Sequence record: NC_018855.1
Length of the DNA: 64,000 bases
DNA from: Escherichia phage HX01
Strand: one strand, 5' to 3'
How positions within the stretch are numbered: position 1 is the stretch's first letter; each line of letters opens with the position of its first letter. A model generated the notes under the pieces. That model ran no database searches and was not told the DNA's origin. It saw nothing but the letters and a program-made list of their open reading frames with translations. Positions 1,634 to 36,655 of this stretch are shown piece by piece. The position numbers were made by a program, and so were the translations under genes.

Positions 1634-1957
1634 ATGACTACCGAGATTATTGAAAATAAAGAAGCAGAAGATGCAGTAGCTAAAATGCTACAAGAAATCC
1701 AAAAGAAAAATGAAGCTGAAGCACGTAAAAAATCCGAAAAGATTCTTAAAAAGAATCGTTTTGAACTAAACCGTCTTTATGCTCATGCTCAAGAAGCAGC
1801 AATTCAAAACAACTTCGAAGCTTACGAATATGCTATTAAGAAATCTCGGGATATTCTACGACAACCATATAATGACAAGTTAATTAAAATCCAGTGGATT
1901 ACTACTCGTCAGGCTATTGAGGACATCATTAATGGCGCTAGTTCAAACAAAGTTTAA
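1634..1957 (+). CDS. hypothetical protein (107 aa), Lys/Glu-rich
   Basis: ATG ORF 2 nt after the upstream stop. Confidence 0.5.
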   Translation: MTTEIIENKEAEDAVAKMLQEIQKKNEAEARKKSEKILKKNRFELNRLYAHAQEAAIQNNFEAYEYAIKKSRDILRQPYNDKLIKIQWITTRQAIEDIINGASSNKV

Positions 1958-2138: not shown

Positions 2139-2177
2139 TAGAAATCGATTTAGGTATTTTCTGAGAGGTGATTATGT

Positions 2178-2354
2178 ATGACGAACACCCAGACTTCTGA
2201 AATAGATTATAATAAAATTCGTTCCTCTAAAGTAGAAATGATGAGACGCTTTAAAGAGTCTCATGATAAAGCTAAAGCAGAAGGAACTATAACATATAAG
2301 CCCATTCGATTTAAAAGTTCAAATGAGCCTCTGTACGGTGTACTATGTGGATAG
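2178..2354 (+). CDS. hypothetical small protein (58 aa)
   Basis: ATG ORF below the track size cutoff, GAGGTG ribosome-binding site upstream, stop directly followed by a terminator hairpin. Confidence 0.3.
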   Translation: MTNTQTSEIDYNKIRSSKVEMMRRFKESHDKAKAEGTITYKPIRFKSSNEPLYGVLCG

Positions 2355-2378
2355 GAACTCTTCGGAGTTCCTTTTTTG
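2355..2378 (+). terminator. rho-independent terminator
   Basis: GGAACTC-ttcg-GAGTTCC hairpin followed by TTTTTT. Confidence 0.65.
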
Positions 2379-2423
2379 CTTTATAAACGGATGATAGAAT
2401 GAATTAACTAATGAGGAAATAAT

Positions 2424-3443
2424 ATGAAAATTTTGCACTTAGGCGACTTCCATATCGGAGTCAAACAAGACGACCCATGGGTTCAAGATATTCAACGTGA
2501 TGGTATTCGTCAAGCAATTGAATACTCTAAGAAACATGGGATTAAAACTTGGATTCAGTACGGTGATTGGTTTGACGTCCGTAAAGCAATAACACATCGT
2601 ACAATGGAATTCAATCGTGAAATTGTTGATATGATTTCTAAAGCAGGCATTCACGTTCATGTCACGATAGGAAACCATGACATGGCGTTTAAGAATACAA
2701 TAACACCTAACACTGTTTCTGAATTGTTAACTCAATTTGAAAACTTTACTATTTACGAGCATCCAACTACTGTTGATTTTGACGGATGTCTGATTGATAT
2801 CGTTCCATGGATGTGCGAAGAAAATACAGGTGAAATCTTAGAGCACATCAAGACTTCTTCTGCCGCGTATTGTGTTGGGCACTGGGAACTGAACGGCTTT
2901 TATTTCTATAAAGGAATGAAGTCTCATGGGCTTGAACCTGATTTCTTAAAGACCTACAAACAAGTCTGGTCCGGCCACTTCCACACAATCTCTGAAGCTG
3001 CTAACGTCAAATATATTGGGACACCATGGACCCTTACTGCAGGTGATGAGAACGACCCACGCGGATTCTGGGTATTTGACACTGATGTTGAACGTATGGA
3101 ATTTATTCCTAATGAAACAACATGGCATCGACGAATCACTTATCCGTTTAAAGGCAAAATCAATTATTCTGATTATACTAATCTAGCCGTACGTGTTATA
3201 GTATCAGAAATTGATTCAGAGTTGACTAAGTTTGAATCTGAACTTGAAAAAGTAGTTCACTCTCTTCGTATGGTTTCTAAAGTTGATAACAGTGTTGAAT
3301 CTGATGACGACCAGGAAATCGAGATTAAATCACTTCAAGATATCATTAAAGAATATATTGACGCGATTCCAGATATCTCAGACGAAGACAGAGAAGCGCT
3401 GGTCAAATATTCCAACGAACTTTATATTGAGGCAACACAATGA
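2424..3443 (+). CDS. 47: gp47 recombination nuclease subunit (Mre11/SbcD-like)
   Basis: 339 aa, same length as T4 gp47; strong similarity along the length (GDFHIGVK, GNHD, GHWELNGFYFYKGMKSHGLEPDFLKTY, GTPWTLTAGDENDPRGFW). Confidence 0.9.
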   Translation: MKILHLGDFHIGVKQDDPWVQDIQRDGIRQAIEYSKKHGIKTWIQYGDWFDVRKAITHRTMEFNREIVDMISKAGIHVHVTIGNHDMAFKNTITPNTVSELLTQFENFTIYEHPTTVDFDGCLIDIVPWMCEENTGEILEHIKTSSAAYCVGHWELNGFYFYKGMKSHGLEPDFLKTYKQVWSGHFHTISEAANVKYIGTPWTLTAGDENDPRGFWVFDTDVERMEFIPNETTWHRRITYPFKGKINYSDYTNLAVRVIVSEIDSELTKFESELEKVVHSLRMVSKVDNSVESDDDQEIEIKSLQDIIKEYIDAIPDISDEDREALVKYSNELYIEATQ

Positions 3444-3697
3444 CTTTAGATGAATTTAACAATGCTGGTCTCAGGCTTGAAGTCGAAATGGGCGTTAAAG
3501 ATGATGATGGATTCGAGAACACTATCAAGTATTGGATTGAGCCATTACGCGTTGAAGGTAATGAAGTTAAAGCAGTTCATGTCTGCACCGACTGGGCTAT
3601 TGAATTTAGCTTTAATATAATGGACAACGATACTCCTGGCTCTATTCTTAAAATGGCTGAAGCGTGTATTGAGGATGCGTATAATGACGAAGACTGA
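3440..3697 (+). CDS. hypothetical protein (85 aa), 46.x-like
   Basis: ORF coupled by ATGA overlap to gene 47; syntenic with T4 46.1/46.2. Confidence 0.5.
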   Translation: MTLDEFNNAGLRLEVEMGVKDDDGFENTIKYWIEPLRVEGNEVKAVHVCTDWAIEFSFNIMDNDTPGSILKMAEACIEDAYNDED

Positions 3698-30939: not shown

Positions 30940-31251
30940 ATGGTTTATGTATATGCAATAGTTTATCGAGATATGGAAGGATTTACTGTCCCGGTTCCAC
31001 TTGATGAGCATCGTCCTGCGGTATTTTTTAGAAAGGATATTGCAGATAAAGTTTTCGATACTTTGAAAACACAGTATAAAACAGATTTAAAAATGGGAGT
31101 TCTAAGAATGGTCGAAACTCCGCGTAAGTTCTGGTTTAATAAGCTTGAAATGAAACACGTTAAACTAGATGCGGAGACGCAAAGATTGTATCAACGAATC
31201 CTGGACACAGGCCGTATTGTTAGTATTCCAATTGCAGGGACTTTACGATGA
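30940..31251 (+). CDS. hypothetical protein (103 aa), dda.1-like by position
   Basis: ORF coupled to dda by ATGA overlap. Confidence 0.45.
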   Translation: MVYVYAIVYRDMEGFTVPVPLDEHRPAVFFRKDIADKVFDTLKTQYKTDLKMGVLRMVETPRKFWFNKLEMKHVKLDAETQRLYQRILDTGRIVSIPIAGTLR

Positions 31252-32561
31252 CATTTGATGATTTGACTGAAGGCCAGAAAAACGCCTTCAACGTTGTTAT
31301 GGAAGCTATTAAAGAAAAGAAACATCATGTAACTATTAATGGACCTGCTGGTACAGGTAAAACAACCCTTACTAGATTCATCGTTGAAGCCCTTATTTCT
31401 TCTGGAGAATCAGGTATTATTTTAGCAGCCCCTACACATGCTGCTAAAAAGGTTCTAAGCAAACTTGCAGGTCAAGAAGCATCGACTATTCATAGCATTC
31501 TTAAAATCAACCCAACTACATACGAAGAAAACGTATTGTTTGAACAGAAAAAGGTTCCCGACTTAGCCTTGTGTCGTGTACTGTTATTTGATGAAGCGTC
31601 AATGTGCGACCGTTCTCTGTTTAAAATAATGTTAGCTAGTATCCCTAAATGGTGCACAGTAATTGGAATCGGCGACCGATGTCAAATTCGACCGGTAGAC
31701 CCAGGCGAATCAACTGCGTATCTAAGTCCTTTCTTCACTCACAAAGACTTCGTGCAATGCAACCTTACAGAAGTTAAACGTAGTAATGCACCAATTATTG
31801 ATGTTGCGACTGATATTCGTAATGGCAAATGGATTTACGATAAAGTAGTTGATGGACACGGTGTTCATGGATATACAGACCTTAAATCGTATATGATGAA
31901 CTATTTTAACGTCGTTAAAACTCCTGAAGACCTTTTCGAAAATCGAATGATGGCATTCACAAATAAGTCGGTGGACAAGTTAAATTCAATTATTCGCCGA
32001 AAACTTCTTGAAACAGAAAAACCATTTATTAAAGACGAAGTCATTGTTCTACAAGAGCCATTTACTAAGACATATAAGCTAGACGGTAAAAATATGACCG
32101 AAATGCTTTTCAATAATGGGCAATTCGTTCGTATTCGAGATGCTGTAGAAACGTCTACATTCGTTAAAGCACGTGGTGTTTCAGGCGAATATATGATACG
32201 ATACTGGAATCTTACAGTAGAAACATATGGTGATGATGAAGAATACGTCCGCGAAGATATAAAGGTTATTTCTTCTGAAGAAGAGCTTTATAAATTCAAT
32301 TTGTTTTTGGCTAAGGCCGCAGAAACATACAAATTCTGGAATAAAGGTGGTAAAGCTCCATGGAGCGAATTCTGGGATGCTAAACGCATGTTCACTAAGG
32401 TGAAGGCACTACCTGTATCAACCTTCCATAAGGCCCAGGGTATGTCTGTTGACACGGCCTTTGTTTATACACCGTGTATCCATTATGCCGATTCAGAATT
32501 AGCTAAACAGTTATTGTATGTCGGCACAACTCGTGGTCGGTTTGACGTCCATTTTATTTGA
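31248..32561 (+). CDS. dda: Dda DNA helicase (SF1B)
   Basis: 437 aa; MTFDDLTEGQKNAFNVVMEAIKEKKHHVTINGPAGTGKTT and later blocks closely match T4 Dda. Confidence 0.9.
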   Translation: MTFDDLTEGQKNAFNVVMEAIKEKKHHVTINGPAGTGKTTLTRFIVEALISSGESGIILAAPTHAAKKVLSKLAGQEASTIHSILKINPTTYEENVLFEQKKVPDLALCRVLLFDEASMCDRSLFKIMLASIPKWCTVIGIGDRCQIRPVDPGESTAYLSPFFTHKDFVQCNLTEVKRSNAPIIDVATDIRNGKWIYDKVVDGHGVHGYTDLKSYMMNYFNVVKTPEDLFENRMMAFTNKSVDKLNSIIRRKLLETEKPFIKDEVIVLQEPFTKTYKLDGKNMTEMLFNNGQFVRIRDAVETSTFVKARGVSGEYMIRYWNLTVETYGDDEEYVREDIKVISSEEELYKFNLFLAKAAETYKFWNKGGKAPWSEFWDAKRMFTKVKALPVSTFHKAQGMSVDTAFVYTPCIHYADSELAKQLLYVGTTRGRFDVHFI

Positions 32562-32570
32562 GAGAAAATT

Positions 32571-33248
32571 ATGAGCACTGATGTTATTATAGATTTTGAA
32601 ACATTCGGCAATACATCAAAAGCGGCTGTTATTGACCTTGCGGTTATTGCATATAATTCCGACCCTGAAGTTGTTGAATCATTTGAAGAACTTGTTCAAC
32701 GAGGTAAGCGAATTAAATTTAATTTAGCTTCTCAGAAAGGGAAGCGAGTTTTCGCTAAATCCACTATGAAATGGTGGAAAGAACAATCGGCTGAAGCGCG
32801 TAAAAACTTGGCTCCGTCTGAAGACGATGTCACTACGCTTGAAGGCATTAAAATCTTTTTAGATTATTGCCGAGCTAATAAAGTTGACCAATGGAAATCA
32901 CAGATGTGGTGTCGTGGTATGAGCTTTGACTTCCCAATCTTGGTCGATTTGATTCGTGACCTCTATCGTGATGAAGGTGTTCTTGAACCAGATATTGATA
33001 CTGATAAATTAGAACCTGTTAAATTCTGGGCTCAACGTGATATTCGTACGGCAATCGAAGCTTACTCGTTGACACGAGGATTAAGTATGTGTCCATTACC
33101 GATGGGTACGCTAAAAGGATTCGTTGCCCATGATAGTATTCATGATTGTGCTAAAGATATTTTGATGTTAAAATATGCTCAGCGTTATGCGCTTGGCCTT
33201 GAAGATGTCCCTGAGAATCCTGATCCGTTAAGTGTAAAACAGCGATAA
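32571..33248 (+). CDS. dexA: DexA exonuclease A (DnaQ-like 3'-5' exonuclease)
   Basis: 225 aa; IIDFETFG, CRGMSFDFPILVDLIRD and FVAHDSIHDCAKDILMLKYA closely match T4 DexA. Confidence 0.85.
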   Translation: MSTDVIIDFETFGNTSKAAVIDLAVIAYNSDPEVVESFEELVQRGKRIKFNLASQKGKRVFAKSTMKWWKEQSAEARKNLAPSEDDVTTLEGIKIFLDYCRANKVDQWKSQMWCRGMSFDFPILVDLIRDLYRDEGVLEPDIDTDKLEPVKFWAQRDIRTAIEAYSLTRGLSMCPLPMGTLKGFVAHDSIHDCAKDILMLKYAQRYALGLEDVPENPDPLSVKQR

Positions 33249-33252
33249 AACA

Positions 33253-33282
33253 GTTTACAACCAAGGATGGTTGGAGTATAAT
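33253..33282 (+). promoter_or_regulatory. early promoter
   Basis: GTTTAC, 17-nt spacer, TATAAT. Confidence 0.55.
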
Positions 33283-33313
33283 CTTTCTATCTTAACCAAA
33301 CAGGAAAAACATT

Positions 33314-33808
33314 ATGAATATCAATACTATGGCTACTTACATCCTGAAAGACGAAAAACAAATCAACTGGTACGGTGCTTCAGTGCGAGCTTATGAAAAG
33401 TTTTGTGAAATTTTAGGTGCCACTCAAGGTAATAGTTTCACTATTGTTAACTTCATCAAACAAGCTGAAGGCCCTTGGTTATTCTTAGAAATTAAAAATT
33501 CACACGGTACAATTTCTACTACCGCCCTTCCAAGCACTGACTTTGAACTGTTGATTGAAGAAGCACCTGTTAAAGATGGTCTCCACTTTGATATGGACAT
33601 CGCTTGTATGTACGGTACTCTGATTAAGCCTATTGAGCCTACTGATTTGTTGTGTAAAGCTGTTTCAATTCGACGTCCGTTCGCAGGACCAGTGAGTGGA
33701 TGGGTAACTGATCAGTGGATTGAAGACGGTGTTGAACTTCTGAACGTAGTTCATGCGGGTGATTTTAGTGTAGTTCCACGTAGTGCAGTAGTTAATATCC
33801 TTAATTAA
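33314..33808 (+). CDS. hypothetical protein, member 1 of a tandem paralog triplet
   Basis: 164 aa; C-terminus GWVTDQWIEDGVELLNVVHAGDFSVVP is shared with the next two ORFs. Confidence 0.55.
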   Translation: MNINTMATYILKDEKQINWYGASVRAYEKFCEILGATQGNSFTIVNFIKQAEGPWLFLEIKNSHGTISTTALPSTDFELLIEEAPVKDGLHFDMDIACMYGTLIKPIEPTDLLCKAVSIRRPFAGPVSGWVTDQWIEDGVELLNVVHAGDFSVVPRSAVVNILN

Positions 33809-33810
33809 TG

Positions 33811-33840
33811 TTGTACATCCAAGGATGGATGGAGTATAAT
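33811..33840 (+). promoter_or_regulatory. early promoter (variant -35 TTGTAC)
   Basis: TTGTAC, 18-nt spacer, TATAAT; the AAGGATGG(A/T)TGGAGTATAAT block is shared with the promoter at 33253. Confidence 0.45.
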
Positions 33841-33872
33841 GAATTCAATTTAAACAAAGAGAGAGAGAAATT

Positions 33873-34337
33873 ATGATTACTATTGGTGAAATCCTTCGTG
33901 TATCTCCTGCTTCTCGTTCTAAAGCTGCAGGTCGTCTGGTTGAAGTAGCAGGGCTTCGTACTAACGGCATGGGACGTGTTAAAGAAGTTAAAGTTCGAAT
34001 CATCCCCAGTTTTGGCGGACAAGATGCCCAGTATGCTTACGTAAGTCCTAAATTCCTGGAAAAACATATACGAGTCCAATTTGCTTCAAGCGATATCGTT
34101 GAGCCTACTACACAGTTCAAATGGGCCCTTTGCAAAGGCGTTGAATTTATAACCGATAAAGAATTTGATTACATCGACGAATACGGATATCCAAGCAAAA
34201 CTGATATTATGTGTGGCTTCATTAGTGACCAATGGGTTGAAGATGGTGAAAAGTTATACAATATCGTATTCTTAGGTGACTTCCGAGTTGTTAAAGAATC
34301 TGAAATCACTCGCTATGTGTCTCCTCGTAAAGCTTAA
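33873..34337 (+). CDS. hypothetical protein, member 2 of tandem paralog triplet
   Basis: 154 aa; shares N-terminal SPASRSKAAGRLVEV and C-terminal GFISDQWVEDGEKLYNIVFLGDF blocks with the flanking paralogs. Confidence 0.55.
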   Translation: MITIGEILRVSPASRSKAAGRLVEVAGLRTNGMGRVKEVKVRIIPSFGGQDAQYAYVSPKFLEKHIRVQFASSDIVEPTTQFKWALCKGVEFITDKEFDYIDEYGYPSKTDIMCGFISDQWVEDGEKLYNIVFLGDFRVVKESEITRYVSPRKA

Positions 34338-34346
34338 GGAATTATT

Positions 34347-34766
34347 ATGAATATTGTAAATCTTTCTACAGGTGATTACGTATATGTATCTGTTGCTTCT
34401 CGCTCTAAAGTTGCCGGGAAGTTGGTTGAAGTTCTTTCTGTGAGTGATCCGGTTTTTGGACGTAACGAAGTTAAAGTTCGTGACGCCGATGGTAATATTG
34501 GTTACGTTAAAAGCCAATTCATTGAACCAGAAGAAAAGGCGTTCAAATGGGGACTATGCAGATCAGTTTCTGTTGAAAAAGACCACGAATTCACTATTGC
34601 TGCGGCAACCGATGGAACGCCATGGAAAACTAAGCAAATCGCCGGATTTATTAGCGACCGTTGGGTAGAAGATGGTGTTAAGCTTTATAACATCGTTTTC
34701 GCTGGTCAGTTCATGGTAGTTCCTGAATTCCAAATTAAAAAATATAGCCCAGCTGCTTTCGCATAA
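34347..34766 (+). CDS. hypothetical protein, member 3 of tandem paralog triplet
   Basis: 139 aa; VASRSKVAGKLVEV and GFISDRWVEDGVKLYNIVFAGQF blocks. Confidence 0.55.
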   Translation: MNIVNLSTGDYVYVSVASRSKVAGKLVEVLSVSDPVFGRNEVKVRDADGNIGYVKSQFIEPEEKAFKWGLCRSVSVEKDHEFTIAAATDGTPWKTKQIAGFISDRWVEDGVKLYNIVFAGQFMVVPEFQIKKYSPAAFA

Positions 34767-34770
34767 AGTT

Positions 34771-34799
34771 GTTTACTTCTCCTCTGGTTTTGATATTAT
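34771..34799 (+). promoter_or_regulatory. early promoter
   Basis: GTTTAC, 17-nt spacer, TATTAT. Confidence 0.5.
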
Positions 34800-34825
34800 A
34801 GCCATATTAACCAGAGGAGAATAAT

Positions 34826-35350: not shown

Positions 35351-35407
35351 TGTACAACAACTATGGTCTATGATACTATAGACCTATCAAAACAAGAGGA
35401 GAATATT

Positions 35408-35635
35408 ATGAAACGTCAAATCATTAAAAACGTAACTACTGATTCAAACATCGATGAGTTTGAAGATGTTCTGTTTAATCCTGATTTAGTTGTTGTACAG
35501 AAAAGCTGGACCGAATTTTTATGCTACACCGAAGTGGTTTACGTTTACGAAAAACTCGGTGATGAAATGCCTATCTATGGTATCTTCCGTGAAATCACTG
35601 AAAACGGTACAACTTATTGGAAGGAAACTTACTAA
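35408..35635 (+). CDS. hypothetical protein (75 aa)
   Basis: Track start 35363 lies inside the promoter; trimmed to ATG 35408 with GAGGAG ribosome-binding site. Confidence 0.45.
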
Positions 35636-36045
35636 TGGCTAATAAATTTGAAGTTAATAAATGGTATCAGTTCATAGATAAACGTGCCCAAGAAGAGTTT
35701 ATTAAAGACCACACTGATAATGGGATTTATGCACGACGTCTTGGCATGGAGCCATTTAAAGTATTAGATGTTGACCATCTTGGACGTCCTACTAAACTTG
35801 TGACATCTACTGGCATGGTTGGATACGCAACAGGCGGTGATATCCTTGATGAAAACTTTATCTGGCTCTCCACAAATGAAGCAGAGTTCTTTGACGAAGT
35901 TGAAAATCCATATCAAGCGTCCGAAGAGCAAGATTCTGGTGAACTTGACGAATTGTCTGAATTTCCTGTGATGACGATTACTATCGAAAATAATGATCAG
36001 GCATGGTCTTTGTATCAAATGTTGAAAACACATTTTAAGGAATAA
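35635..36045 (+). CDS. hypothetical acidic protein (136 aa)
   Basis: Track TTG start trimmed to ATG 35635 (TAATG overlap). Confidence 0.5.
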
Positions 36046-36229: not shown

Positions 36230-36655
36230 ATGGCTTTTAAAGGTTTTGAAGTTGGTAAGAAATATCGTATTATCAAAGGACAGGAAGATAATTTCTTGAG
36301 AATTCTTAATACGACTGGTAAACGTCTTAATACTAATCTGCATACTACTTTGTTGTCCAAAGATTTTATTGTAGAAGAGATGATTGGTTACGGCGTTTCG
36401 GTTATTGCCGTAGAAGCCGTAGGCGATTATGGCCGAACTATTCATAGTATGCAAGGTGATATTCTGCTTTATGGTGCAGAATTTAAATTCTTTGAAGAAG
36501 TTCCGGAACCAGATACATCTGTCGATTTCAAAAAAGGCTCTGTAGAATTTGTTGATGGTTCGGTGATCGTATCAGGTGATGTGGTCATTACAGTTAAAAG
36601 TGAACAAGGGCGTTTGGCTGCAATTGATGCACTTCAGAAAATTAAATTTAAATAA
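36230..36655 (+). CDS. hypothetical protein (141 aa)
   Basis: ATG ORF followed by a terminator. Confidence 0.5.
   Translation: MAFKGFEVGKKYRIIKGQEDNFLRILNTTGKRLNTNLHTTLLSKDFIVEEMIGYGVSVIAVEAVGDYGRTIHSMQGDILLYGAEFKFFEEVPEPDTSVDFKKGSVEFVDGSVIVSGDVVITVKSEQGRLAAIDALQKIKFK

What the first reader, a model, noticed from the sequence alone, without database searches (positions are those of the whole stretch)
33253..34766. Tandem triplet of paralogous early genes, each with a conserved C-terminal W(V/I)EDG...N(I/V)V(F/H)xGxF motif
Three consecutive ORFs (164, 154 and 139 aa) share a C-terminal block GF(I/V)(S/T)DQW(V/I)EDGxxLxN(I/V)VxxG(D/Q)FxVV; the second and third also share an N-terminal ASRSK(A/V)AG(R/K)LVEV block. 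The first two are preceded by promoters sharing an AAGGATGG(A/T)TGGAGTATAAT element. Local gene amplification with diversification is typical of host-interaction or anti-defence loci.
Basis: seen in the sequence. Interest (0 to 1): 0.45.

Follow-up and report, generated by a model that had tools for sequence, protein, structure and literature searches.

The report
MotB-family early gene trio (known)
The three neighbouring genes are real relatives of one another, but they are the already described motB.1, motB and second motB copy of RB69-like T4-type phages, a family of small early proteins whose studied member coats DNA and disturbs the host silencer H-NS.

Summary
ORFs 33314-33808, 33873-34337 and 34347-34766 share a C-terminal block far beyond chance, and ORF2 and ORF3 also share an N-terminal block. 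ORF1 and ORF2 are each preceded by a strong sigma-70-type promoter carrying an element that occurs only twice in the window.

It is not new. All three pass Pfam PF17613 (MotB, "modifier of transcription").
- ORF2 is the ortholog of T4 MotB (46% identity).
- ORF3 is the second MotB copy, annotated in RB69 in 2003 as "RB69ORF010c similar to motB".
- ORF1 is a full-length MotB.1, with a different N-terminal domain fused to the MotB C-terminal domain.

The RB69 record has the same gene order. A 2021 paper reports that RB69 has two motB, one motB.1 and a 29-aa fragment.

By homology, ORF2 is most likely an abundant, sequence-nonspecific DNA-coating protein that remodels H-NS-DNA complexes. The roles of ORF1 and ORF3 are untested. 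All three are under purifying selection. No link to anti-defence was found.

Side findings:
- The T4 and RB69 reference motB.1 genes carry single-base frameshifts that the window lacks; every other T4 genome record listed carries the intact allele.
- The tandem motB pair is collapsed into one hybrid gene in some phages.
- The C-terminal module is confined to about 25 protein clusters of T4-like phages.

The parts
33254..33282 (+). Early-type sigma-70 promoter P1 for ORF1 (TTTACA, 17-nt spacer, TATAAT). It contains the shared element AAGGATGGTTGGAGTATAAT at 33263-33282.
   Evidence: 11 of 12 consensus positions. (the element occurs only twice in the window; 0 expected). (conserved in RB69, phiC120, SSE1). 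Function is inferred from consensus only.
33314..33808 (+). ORF1, 164 aa: full-length MotB.1 homolog. Predicted beta-rich N-terminal domain at aa 1-85 (33314-33568). Low-confidence linker at aa 86-108 carrying the motif FDMDIACMYGTLIKP. MotB-type C-terminal domain at aa 109-164 (33638-33805), with the core GWVTDQWIEDGVELLNVVHAGDFSVV at 33698-33775.
   Evidence: Pfam PF17613, 36.8 bits against a cut-off of 25, matching aa 88-159. phrog_2333, E = 2e-80 over the full length. 38% identity to T4 MotB.1, E = 1e-26. AF2 model with pLDDT 79 and aa 86-105 below 50. dN/dS 0.12-0.33.
33812..33840 (+). Early-type sigma-70 promoter P2 for ORF2 and ORF3 (TGTACA, 17-nt spacer, TATAAT). It contains AAGGATGGATGGAGTATAAT at 33821-33840.
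33873..34337 (+). ORF2, 154 aa: ortholog of T4 MotB. Basic KOW-like N-terminal domain at aa 1-63 (33873-34061, net charge +5, includes the ASRSKAAGRLVEV block). Disordered linker at aa 64-82. C-terminal beta-barrel domain at aa 83-154 (34119-34334), with the core at 34215-34292.
34347..34766 (+). ORF3, 139 aa: second MotB copy, the ortholog of RB69ORF010c ('similar to motB'). Same two-domain layout as ORF2 but with shorter loops and linker and zero net charge. No promoter match of its own; it starts 10 nt after the ORF2 stop behind an AAGGA ribosome-binding site, so it is probably co-transcribed with ORF2. Core motif at 34644-34721.
   Evidence: PF17613, 77.2 bits. phrog_1671, E = 1e-51. 43% identity to ORF2, E = 7e-30, and 38.5% to T4 MotB. 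Orthologs are 84-94% identical and all 139 aa long. dN/dS 0.04-0.16. RB69 annotation.

Best explanation
**Identity.** This is the motB.1 - motB - motB-like early gene cluster of a Mosigvirus (RB69/JS09-like T4-type phage). It lies between dexA and the motB.2 homolog, cef and goF.

**Architecture.** Each protein is predicted to be two small beta-barrel domains joined by a flexible linker.
- All three share one C-terminal module, with invariant D-x-W-x-E-D-G..L-x-N-x-V..G-x-F-x-V-V.
- ORF2 and ORF3 carry a KOW-like N-terminal domain; the SRSK-x-AG-x-LVEV block is part of it.
- ORF1 carries the unrelated MotB.1-type N-terminal domain, published as LSm-like.

**Expression (inferred).** ORF1 and ORF2 each have their own early sigma-70 promoter. 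ORF3 is probably read from the ORF2 transcript.

**Mechanism, inferred by homology to T4 MotB.** ORF2 is made in large amounts soon after infection. It binds double-stranded DNA without sequence preference, probably through its basic KOW-like domain. It coats host and phage DNA and changes how H-NS/StpA sit on the DNA. This relieves H-NS silencing at some loci and modestly raises burst size.

**The other two.** ORF3 is an old, strongly conserved duplicate that has lost the net positive charge. It probably does a related but distinct job. ORF1 is acidic and unlikely to coat DNA. It probably brings a different ligand-binding head to whatever the shared C-terminal module contacts (a common partner, or self-association).

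**Shown versus inferred.** Shown here: homology, domain layout, synteny, promoter matches, purifying selection. Inferred: all biochemical activities.
For: Family membership: PF17613 is above its gathering cut-off for all three ORFs; PHROG 1671 and 2333 hits.

Orthology to T4 MotB and MotB.1.

Identical gene order and annotation in RB69: motB.1, RB69ORF012c, motB, 'RB69ORF010c similar to motB', motB.2, cef, goF. The same order holds in PNJ-6, phiC120 and SSE1. 149 phage records cover at least 80% of the locus at DNA level.

Charge: ORF2 N-terminal domain +5, like T4 MotB (+5). ORF1 net -8. ORF3 net 0.

Purifying selection, dN/dS 0.04-0.36.

Promoters.

Literature:
- T4 MotB is toxic when expressed, binds DNA nonspecifically, co-purifies with H-NS/StpA and doubles burst size (PMC6070864).
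- KOW plus OB-fold prediction; MotB.1 shares the C-terminal domain; RB69 has two motB and one motB.1 (PMC7827196).
- The MotB.1 N-terminal domain is LSm-like, together with GoF and Frd.2 (PMC12152347).
- MotB as a phage nucleoid-associated protein: Son et al. 2021, NAR 49:9229. Known here only from its title and its citation in PMC13096335.
Against: - No biochemical data exist for ORF1-type or ORF3-type proteins.
- T4 deletion and amber mutants of motB.1 had no phenotype, and MotB.1 had no effect in an RNA reporter assay (PMC12152347).
- ORF2 is only 46% identical to T4 MotB. Its C-terminal domain is acidic (-4), whereas T4's is +2, so the DNA-binding behaviour may differ.
- Which domain binds DNA is not known, even in T4.
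- Promoter activity and co-transcription of ORF3 are inferred from sequence only.
Confidence: 0.8

Rival explanations
1. The trio is a diversifying anti-defence locus. Each paralog would neutralise a different host immune system or a variant of one target.
For: The locus lies in the dispensable, plastic early region. Copy number varies from 1 to 3 per genome. N-terminal domains are swapped among at least four architectures. Alleles are exchanged between genera: the RB68 ORF3 ortholog is 90% identical to the window while the flanking dexA is 68%. H-NS silencing of foreign DNA can be seen as a form of defence (PMC7827196 discussion).
Against: No experimental link was found. One literature search for motB with 'anti-defense' returned a single paper, which mentions MotB only as a DNA-coating protein. 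Pairwise dN/dS is 0.04-0.36, with ORF3 the most constrained. The shared motif is nearly invariant across the whole family. T4 MotB acts on DNA in general, not on a specific immune protein (PMC6070864).
Confidence: 0.08
2. They are transcription regulators of phage middle genes. This is the historical meaning of motB, 'modifier of transcription', and the source of the common database label 'MotB-like transcriptional regulator'.
For: Database names. The N-terminal domain has a KOW fold like NusG and Spt5.
Against: In T4, a motB knockdown leaves early and middle RNA levels unchanged and only mildly affects a few late genes (PMC6070864 abstract; PMC7827196). No sequence-specific binding was detected.
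Confidence: 0.05
3. For ORF1 only: it is an RNA-binding, Hfq-like chaperone that affects the stability or translation of phage or host mRNAs. The MotB C-terminal domain would serve as an assembly or localisation module.
Against: T4 MotB.1 had no effect in the gene-41 leader reporter assay, and AlphaFold3 gave no confident multimer (PMC12152347). ORF1 is acidic (net -8, pI 4.8), which is unusual for an RNA chaperone. The fold match is generic for small barrels: Tudor, PWWP and chromo domains score higher.
Confidence: 0.15
4. The shared blocks are chance similarity, or the ORFs are not real genes.
For: None found.
Against: z-scores of 14-44 against shuffles. Pfam scores above the curated cut-offs. 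Conserved intact orthologs in the many phage genomes that cover the locus. dN/dS well below 1.
Confidence: 0.01

Closest known systems
RB69 locus motB.1 / RB69ORF012c / motB / RB69ORF010c ('similar to motB') / motB.2 (GenBank AY303349, 2003 annotation)
   Same: Same genes in the same order, between dexA and cef. Both promoter elements are present. The ORF3 ortholog is 97% identical and the ORF2 ortholog 87%.
   Different: In the RB69 record, motB.1 is broken by two single-base insertions into a 132-aa ORF and a 29-aa ORF. In the window it is one intact 164-aa ORF.
T4 MotB (NP_049626): DNA-coating early protein that alters H-NS-DNA complexes
   Same: ORF2 is 46% identical over the full length. 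It has the same KOW-like basic N-terminal domain, linker and C-terminal domain, lies downstream of motB.1 as in T4, and has an early promoter.
   Different: ORF2 is 8 aa shorter with an acidic C-terminal domain. The window has a second copy (ORF3) that T4 lacks. The motB.2 homolog lies downstream of the trio here, whereas in T4 it lies upstream of motB.1.
T4 MotB.1 (Category 2 of PMC7827196; PHROG 2333)
   Same: ORF1 aligns with T4 MotB.1 from residue 1 (38% identity) and carries the same DPTDLLCKAV..GWVTDQWIEDGVELLNVVHAG C-terminal domain.
   Different: ORF1 has a 21-residue insertion (about aa 87-107) carrying an FDMDIACMYGTL motif that the 143-aa T4-type protein lacks. The T4 reference annotation (119 aa) stops inside the conserved core because of an extra G.
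KOW-domain proteins (NusG and RfaH C-terminal domains, Spt5 KOW repeats) and Tudor/SH3-like small barrels
   Different: No detectable sequence homology: a PDB profile search found nothing below E = 0.02. There is no NusG N-terminal domain. Nothing suggests binding to RNA polymerase or the ribosome.
Phage antagonists of H-NS: T7 gp5.5, T4 Arn
   Same: The same host target system as proposed for MotB (PMC7827196 discussion).
   Different: Those proteins bind H-NS directly. MotB associates with H-NS only in the presence of DNA. Sequence or fold similarity to them was not tested here.

Membership tests
MotB family (Pfam PF17613) | Score against the family HMM above the curated gathering cut-off (25 bits) | tested here: met
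   ORF1 36.8, ORF2 125.8 and ORF3 77.2 bits. For ORF1 only the C-terminal half matches (aa 88-159).
MotB proper (PHROG 1671; Category 1 of PMC7827196) | KOW-like N-terminal domain with the SRSK-x-AG-x-(L/F)VEV block, plus the MotB C-terminal domain | tested here: met
   Met for ORF2 and ORF3. Not met for ORF1, whose N-terminal half is unrelated, so ORF1 is not filed here.
MotB proper | Position in the early region between dexA and cef, transcribed in the same direction | tested here: met
   Order in the window is dda, dexA, ORF1, ORF2, ORF3, ORF4, cef, goF. It matches RB69 and, apart from the position of motB.2, T4.
MotB proper | Sequence-nonspecific DNA binding, co-purification with H-NS/StpA, toxicity on expression, effect on burst size | not testable with these tools
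   Known only for T4 MotB (PMC6070864, PMC7827196). Here the only support is the basic N-terminal domain of ORF2 (+5).
MotB proper | Early expression from a sigma-70 promoter | tested here: inconclusive
   Strong consensus matches upstream of ORF1 and ORF2, conserved in relatives. No expression data are available.
MotB.1 (PHROG 2333; Category 2 of PMC7827196) | Full-length match to the family profile and to T4 MotB.1 | tested here: met
   ORF1: phrog_2333, E = 2e-80 over aa 1-164. T4 MotB.1, E = 1e-26 and 38% identity. Intact homologs of 143-169 aa.
MotB.1 | N-terminal five-stranded LSm-like beta domain (PMC12152347) | tested here: inconclusive
MotB.1 | C-terminal domain of the DPTDLLC...GWVTDQWIEDGVELLNVVHAG type | tested here: met
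   ORF1 aa 109-154. The columns are invariant across 24 homologs.
Known anti-phage defence proteins (PADLOC) and NCBIfam named families | Any profile match | tested here: not met
   No hit at E <= 0.01 for ORF1-ORF4. No library of anti-defence proteins was available.

The most novel reading that the evidence does not exclude
The shared C-terminal module is not the DNA-binding part. It would instead be a common assembly or target-binding module that lets paralogs with different heads (KOW-type ORF2 and ORF3, LSm-type ORF1) co-assemble on the nucleoid as mixed complexes, so the trio would work as one system.

Linked to this: the published 'no phenotype / no activity' results for T4 MotB.1 may have used the truncated 119-aa reference annotation, which lacks the conserved core. 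If so, full-length MotB.1 has never really been tested.
Probability: 0.2. Interest if true: 0.4.

Novelty: already known. Interest (0 to 1): 0.14.

Why it matters
This result mainly closes the finding: the trio is a correctly spotted but already annotated and published gene family, so it should not be pursued as a discovery.

Three things retain some value:
- The functions of MotB.1 and of the second MotB copy are still unknown, although both are conserved under purifying selection in the many T4-like phage genomes that carry them.
- The family's C-terminal module is confined to about 25 protein clusters among 1.84 billion representatives, and it is recombined with several different N-terminal heads. 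That makes it a compact model for modular evolution of phage takeover proteins.
- The T4 and RB69 reference sequences appear to misrepresent motB.1 through single-base frameshifts. This affects how published experiments and phylogenies on 'MotB.1' and the '29-aa peptide' should be read.

Tried and rejected
- **PDB sequence search** with profiles of both protein groups: nothing below E = 0.02. The staphylokinase hits at E = 0.02-0.1 are treated as noise.
- **BFVD Foldseek**: returns family members and a few KOW-domain phage proteins, nothing new.
- **NCBIfam and PADLOC**: no hits.
- **Search for positive selection**: simple pairwise Nei-Gojobori dN/dS is below 0.4 everywhere. No site-wise test was run.
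- **Programmed frameshift in T4 motB.1**: considered and rejected, because the extra G is present only in the reference record and absent from all other T4 genome records listed.
- **ORF4 as a fourth family member**: considered because T4 calls it motB.2, and rejected. It has no significant similarity to ORF1-3 (best E = 0.43) and belongs to a different PHROG (1106).
- **The 16-nt inverted repeat 34780-34795 / 35385-35400** flanking ORF4: it reflects two near-identical ribosome-binding regions (..AGAGGAGAATA.TATG) rather than a mobile-element boundary.
- **Son et al. 2021 (NAR 49:9229)** could not be read; the paper is not held.
Full report
**1. What is in the sequence**

The region holds three consecutive + strand ORFs of 164, 154 and 139 aa, at 33314-33808, 33873-34337 and 34347-34766. 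Upstream lie a Dda-type helicase (31248-32561) and DexA exonuclease (32571-33248). Downstream come a 174-aa ORF, then cef and goF homologs.

A three-way alignment shows an invariant C-terminal core, G..D.W.EDG..L.N.V..G.F.VV. It also shows the N-terminal block ASRSK(A/V)AG(R/K)LVEV shared by ORF2 and ORF3. Smith-Waterman scores are 97, 106 and 242 for the three pairs. The shuffle mean is about 28 (sd 4.6-4.8) and the shuffle maximum 58, giving z = 14.5, 17.1 and 44.2. A tblastn of the C-terminal domains finds exactly three copies in the 64-kb window, all here.

Both copies sit in the two best + strand sigma-70 consensus matches of the region, each with a 17-nt spacer. The similarity of the two promoter regions runs over 48 nt at 77% identity. 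Both copies are conserved in RB69 and SSE1. In phiC120 the first matches exactly and the second differs only in the -10 hexamer.

ORF3 has no promoter match of its own in the scan. It begins 10 nt after the ORF2 stop, behind AAGGA.

**2. What it is**

All three proteins pass the curated cut-off of Pfam PF17613 ('motB, modifier of transcription'). The scores are 36.8, 125.8 and 77.2 bits against a cut-off of 25. For ORF1 only residues 88-159 match.

- In PHROGs, ORF2 and ORF3 belong to phrog_1671 ('MotB-like transcriptional regulator', E = 3e-61 and 1e-51).
- ORF1 belongs to phrog_2333 (E = 2e-80), with a secondary hit of its last 38 residues to phrog_1671.

Against the T4 proteins:

- ORF2 is 46% identical to MotB over the full length (E = 2e-40).
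- ORF3 is 38.5% identical to MotB and 43% to ORF2.
- ORF1 aligns from residue 1 with T4 MotB.1 (38%, E = 1e-26), and its C-terminus aligns with MotB (E = 3e-12).
- The following 174-aa ORF4 is the MotB.2 homolog (34%, E = 3e-15) and is unrelated in sequence to the trio.

At DNA level the locus matches 254 phage records. 149 of them cover at least 80% of it, the best at 96.8% identity. Most of the best matches that carry annotation are labelled with MotB-related names such as 'MotB-like transcriptional regulator'.

The 2003 RB69 record has exactly this order: dexA, motB.1, RB69ORF012c, motB, 'RB69ORF010c similar to motB', motB.2, cef, goF. PNJ-6, phiC120 and SSE1 have the same order.

Patterson-West et al. 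2021 (PMC7827196) describe the family in four categories. They note that MotB and MotB.1 share the C-terminal domain but differ in the N-terminal domain. [quoted passage not shown] The finding is therefore an independent rediscovery of a published, annotated family.

**3. Anatomy**

AlphaFold2 models were built on alignments of 23-24 homologs and reach mean pLDDT 79 for both ORF1 and ORF2. Each consists of two beta-rich domains separated by a segment with pLDDT below 50: ORF1 aa 86-105 and ORF2 aa 66-82.

These results agree with the published KOW assignment for the MotB N-terminal domain and with the LSm-like assignment for the MotB.1 N-terminal domain (Kim et al. 2025, PMC12152347). They are too generic to settle whether the C-terminal domain is an OB fold, as published, or an SH3/Tudor-like barrel. 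No solved structure of a sequence relative exists.

Charge differs sharply between the paralogs:

- ORF2 N-terminal domain: +5, as in T4 MotB.
- ORF2 C-terminal domain: -4.
- ORF3: net 0.
- ORF1: net -8, pI 4.8.

**4. Distribution and evolution**

A tblastn with the ORF1 C-terminal domain finds 779 phage records, all enterobacterial T4-like phages, with one to three copies per genome. Typical counts are three in Mosigvirus and in some Tequatrovirus (RB68, RB7, GiZh, TH09), two in most Tequatrovirus, and one in the Klebsiella and Edwardsiella phages listed.

A profile of the three C-terminal domains was searched against 1.84 billion cluster representatives. It finds only 29 clusters at E <= 0.001. 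About 25 are credible family members of 101-251 aa, and three long repetitive proteins look spurious.

The module occurs behind at least four kinds of N-terminal region:

- KOW-type heads.
- MotB.1-type heads.
- A 180-aa class.
- A 245-251-aa class with extra domains.

Most distant members have a KOW-type head, followed by a (V/I)xDxDVxxMY motif, then DPTDLLC and the core. ORF1 keeps that linker motif (FDMDIACMYGTLIKPIEPTDLLC), whereas the T4-type 143-aa MotB.1 lacks it.

Pairwise dN/dS between the window and six relatives is 0.12-0.33 for ORF1, 0.14-0.36 for ORF2 and 0.04-0.16 for ORF3. All three are therefore functional genes under purifying selection. dS at ORF2 within Mosigvirus (0.15-0.54) exceeds that of the neighbouring dexA (0.04-0.14). 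The RB68 and RB7 orthologs of ORF3 are 90% identical to the window while dexA is 68% identical. Together this points to allele and cassette exchange between lineages rather than fast adaptive change.

Four metagenomic contigs from different samples carry a single hybrid gene, with a motB-type N-terminal half and an ORF3-type C-terminal half. Three of them show one other family gene upstream, and two run on into cef downstream. That is the product expected from recombination between the tandem copies.

**5. How it most likely works**

What is established comes from T4 MotB:

- It is an abundant early protein, about 40,000 copies per cell at 5 min (quoted in PMC12152347).
- It is toxic when expressed alone, binds modified and unmodified DNA without sequence preference, co-purifies with H-NS and StpA, and doubles burst size (PMC6070864).
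- It overrides the H-NS footprint at proV. It up-regulates 75 host genes, a third of them in the H-NS regulon.
- It does not measurably change the T4 transcriptome (PMC7827196).
[quoted passage not shown] 2021, seen only as a citation).

By orthology, I assign this mechanism to ORF2 with reasonable confidence. For ORF3, a conserved duplicate without net positive charge, I infer a related but diverged role. For ORF1, an acidic protein with a different head, I infer that it does not coat DNA. It would use the shared C-terminal module for the same contact as MotB does, either a partner or self-association. These last two points are inference only.

**6. Rivals**

- *Anti-defence.* Nothing supports it beyond the general plasticity of the locus. 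There is no literature link, and selection is purifying.
- *Regulator of phage middle transcription.* This historical idea is contradicted by the T4 RNA-seq.
- *RNA-chaperone role for ORF1.* It is possible on fold grounds, but T4 MotB.1 was negative in the one assay published.
- *Chance similarity.* Excluded.

**7. Verdict**

The side observations most worth passing on are the frameshifts in the T4 and RB69 reference motB.1 genes.

- The T4 allele with the extra G is found only in AF158101/NC_000866.
- All eleven other T4 genome records listed carry the intact allele, which encodes a 143-aa, 16.2-kDa protein with the full conserved core.
- The RB69 '29-aa peptide' is the displaced C-terminus of motB.1.

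Noticed in passing
L002 (T4 NC_000866) 1643-1860, minus strand; compare window 33695-33808: The T4 reference motB.1 (119 aa) ends inside the conserved core (…WVTDQWIGRWR*) because of one extra G (ATTGGAAGATGG). The +1 frame continues with EDGVELLNVVHAGEYSVVPRSAVVAILN*. That allele occurs only in AF158101/NC_000866. Eleven other T4 genome records, plus RB55 and RB59, carry the intact allele, which encodes a 143-aa, 16.2-kDa protein. Published work cites MotB.1 as 13.8 kDa, which is the size of the truncated form.
   Followed up: yes
L004 (RB69 AY303349) 2168-2664: RB69 motB.1 is split into a 132-aa ORF and the 29-aa 'RB69ORF012c' by two single-base insertions relative to the window (CGTTTCGCAGG and GACGGTTGTTG). 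The '29-aa Category 3 peptide' of PMC7827196 is therefore most likely the displaced C-terminus of motB.1, from a sequencing error or a stock mutation, and not a separate gene.
   Followed up: partly
window 34772-34825: A perfect 13-bp hairpin (34777-34789 / 34809-34821; RNA fold -24 kcal/mol, z = -3.45) encloses the -10 hexamer (TATTAT, 34794-34799) of a promoter-like site for ORF4, the motB.2 homolog. Its 3' arm covers the ORF4 ribosome-binding site GAGGAG. Read-through transcripts from ORF3 would sequester that site, while transcripts starting inside the loop would not. From my own knowledge, this layout is known for several T4 genes.
   Followed up: partly
L009 1373-1894; L010 3001-3492; L011 2199-2690; L012 37-528: Contigs from four different samples carry one hybrid motB: the N-terminal half is of the motB (ORF2 or T4) type and the C-terminal half of the ORF3 type. 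L009-L011 show one other family gene upstream, and L009 and L012 run on into cef. This looks like collapse of the tandem pair by recombination between the copies.
   Followed up: partly
L005 (RB68) 2153-3637 and L008 (RB7) 2228-3640: These two Tequatrovirus phages carry the same motB.1 - motB - 139-aa trio. Their ORF3 orthologs are 90% identical to the window (dS about 0.65), while the flanking dexA is only 68% identical (dS about 2-2.5). This suggests the cassette was exchanged between genera.
   Followed up: partly
window 33581-33625 (ORF1 aa 90-104): A short conserved motif, (F/I)D(M/F)D(I/V)xxMYxxx(I/V)KP, lies in the low-confidence linker of ORF1. In relatives it appears at different positions: at the N-terminus of the 180-aa and 250-aa classes, and in the linker of KOW-headed members. 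It is absent from the T4-type 143-aa MotB.1. It may be a portable peptide motif; its function is unknown.
   Followed up: no
window 36230-36655: This 141-aa ORF, the ortholog of RB69ORF005c, belongs to the same PHROG as GoF (phrog_622, E = 8e-22). It weakly hits the MotB.1 PHROG over its N-terminal 98 residues (E = 0.0012). That fits the published GoF / MotB.1 / Frd.2 LSm-like family, so the locus holds at least three such heads: ORF1, goF and this ORF.
   Followed up: no
window 35363-35635 and 35617-36045: The mechanical ORF starts for cef (90 aa) and goF (TTG, 142 aa) are probably too far upstream. Comparison with T4 and the ribosome-binding sites places the real starts at ATG 35408 (MKRQII…) and ATG 35635 (MANKFEV…). 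A 7-bp palindromic hairpin (35365-35384) and a TGTACA…TATGAT promoter-like site lie just upstream of cef.
   Followed up: no
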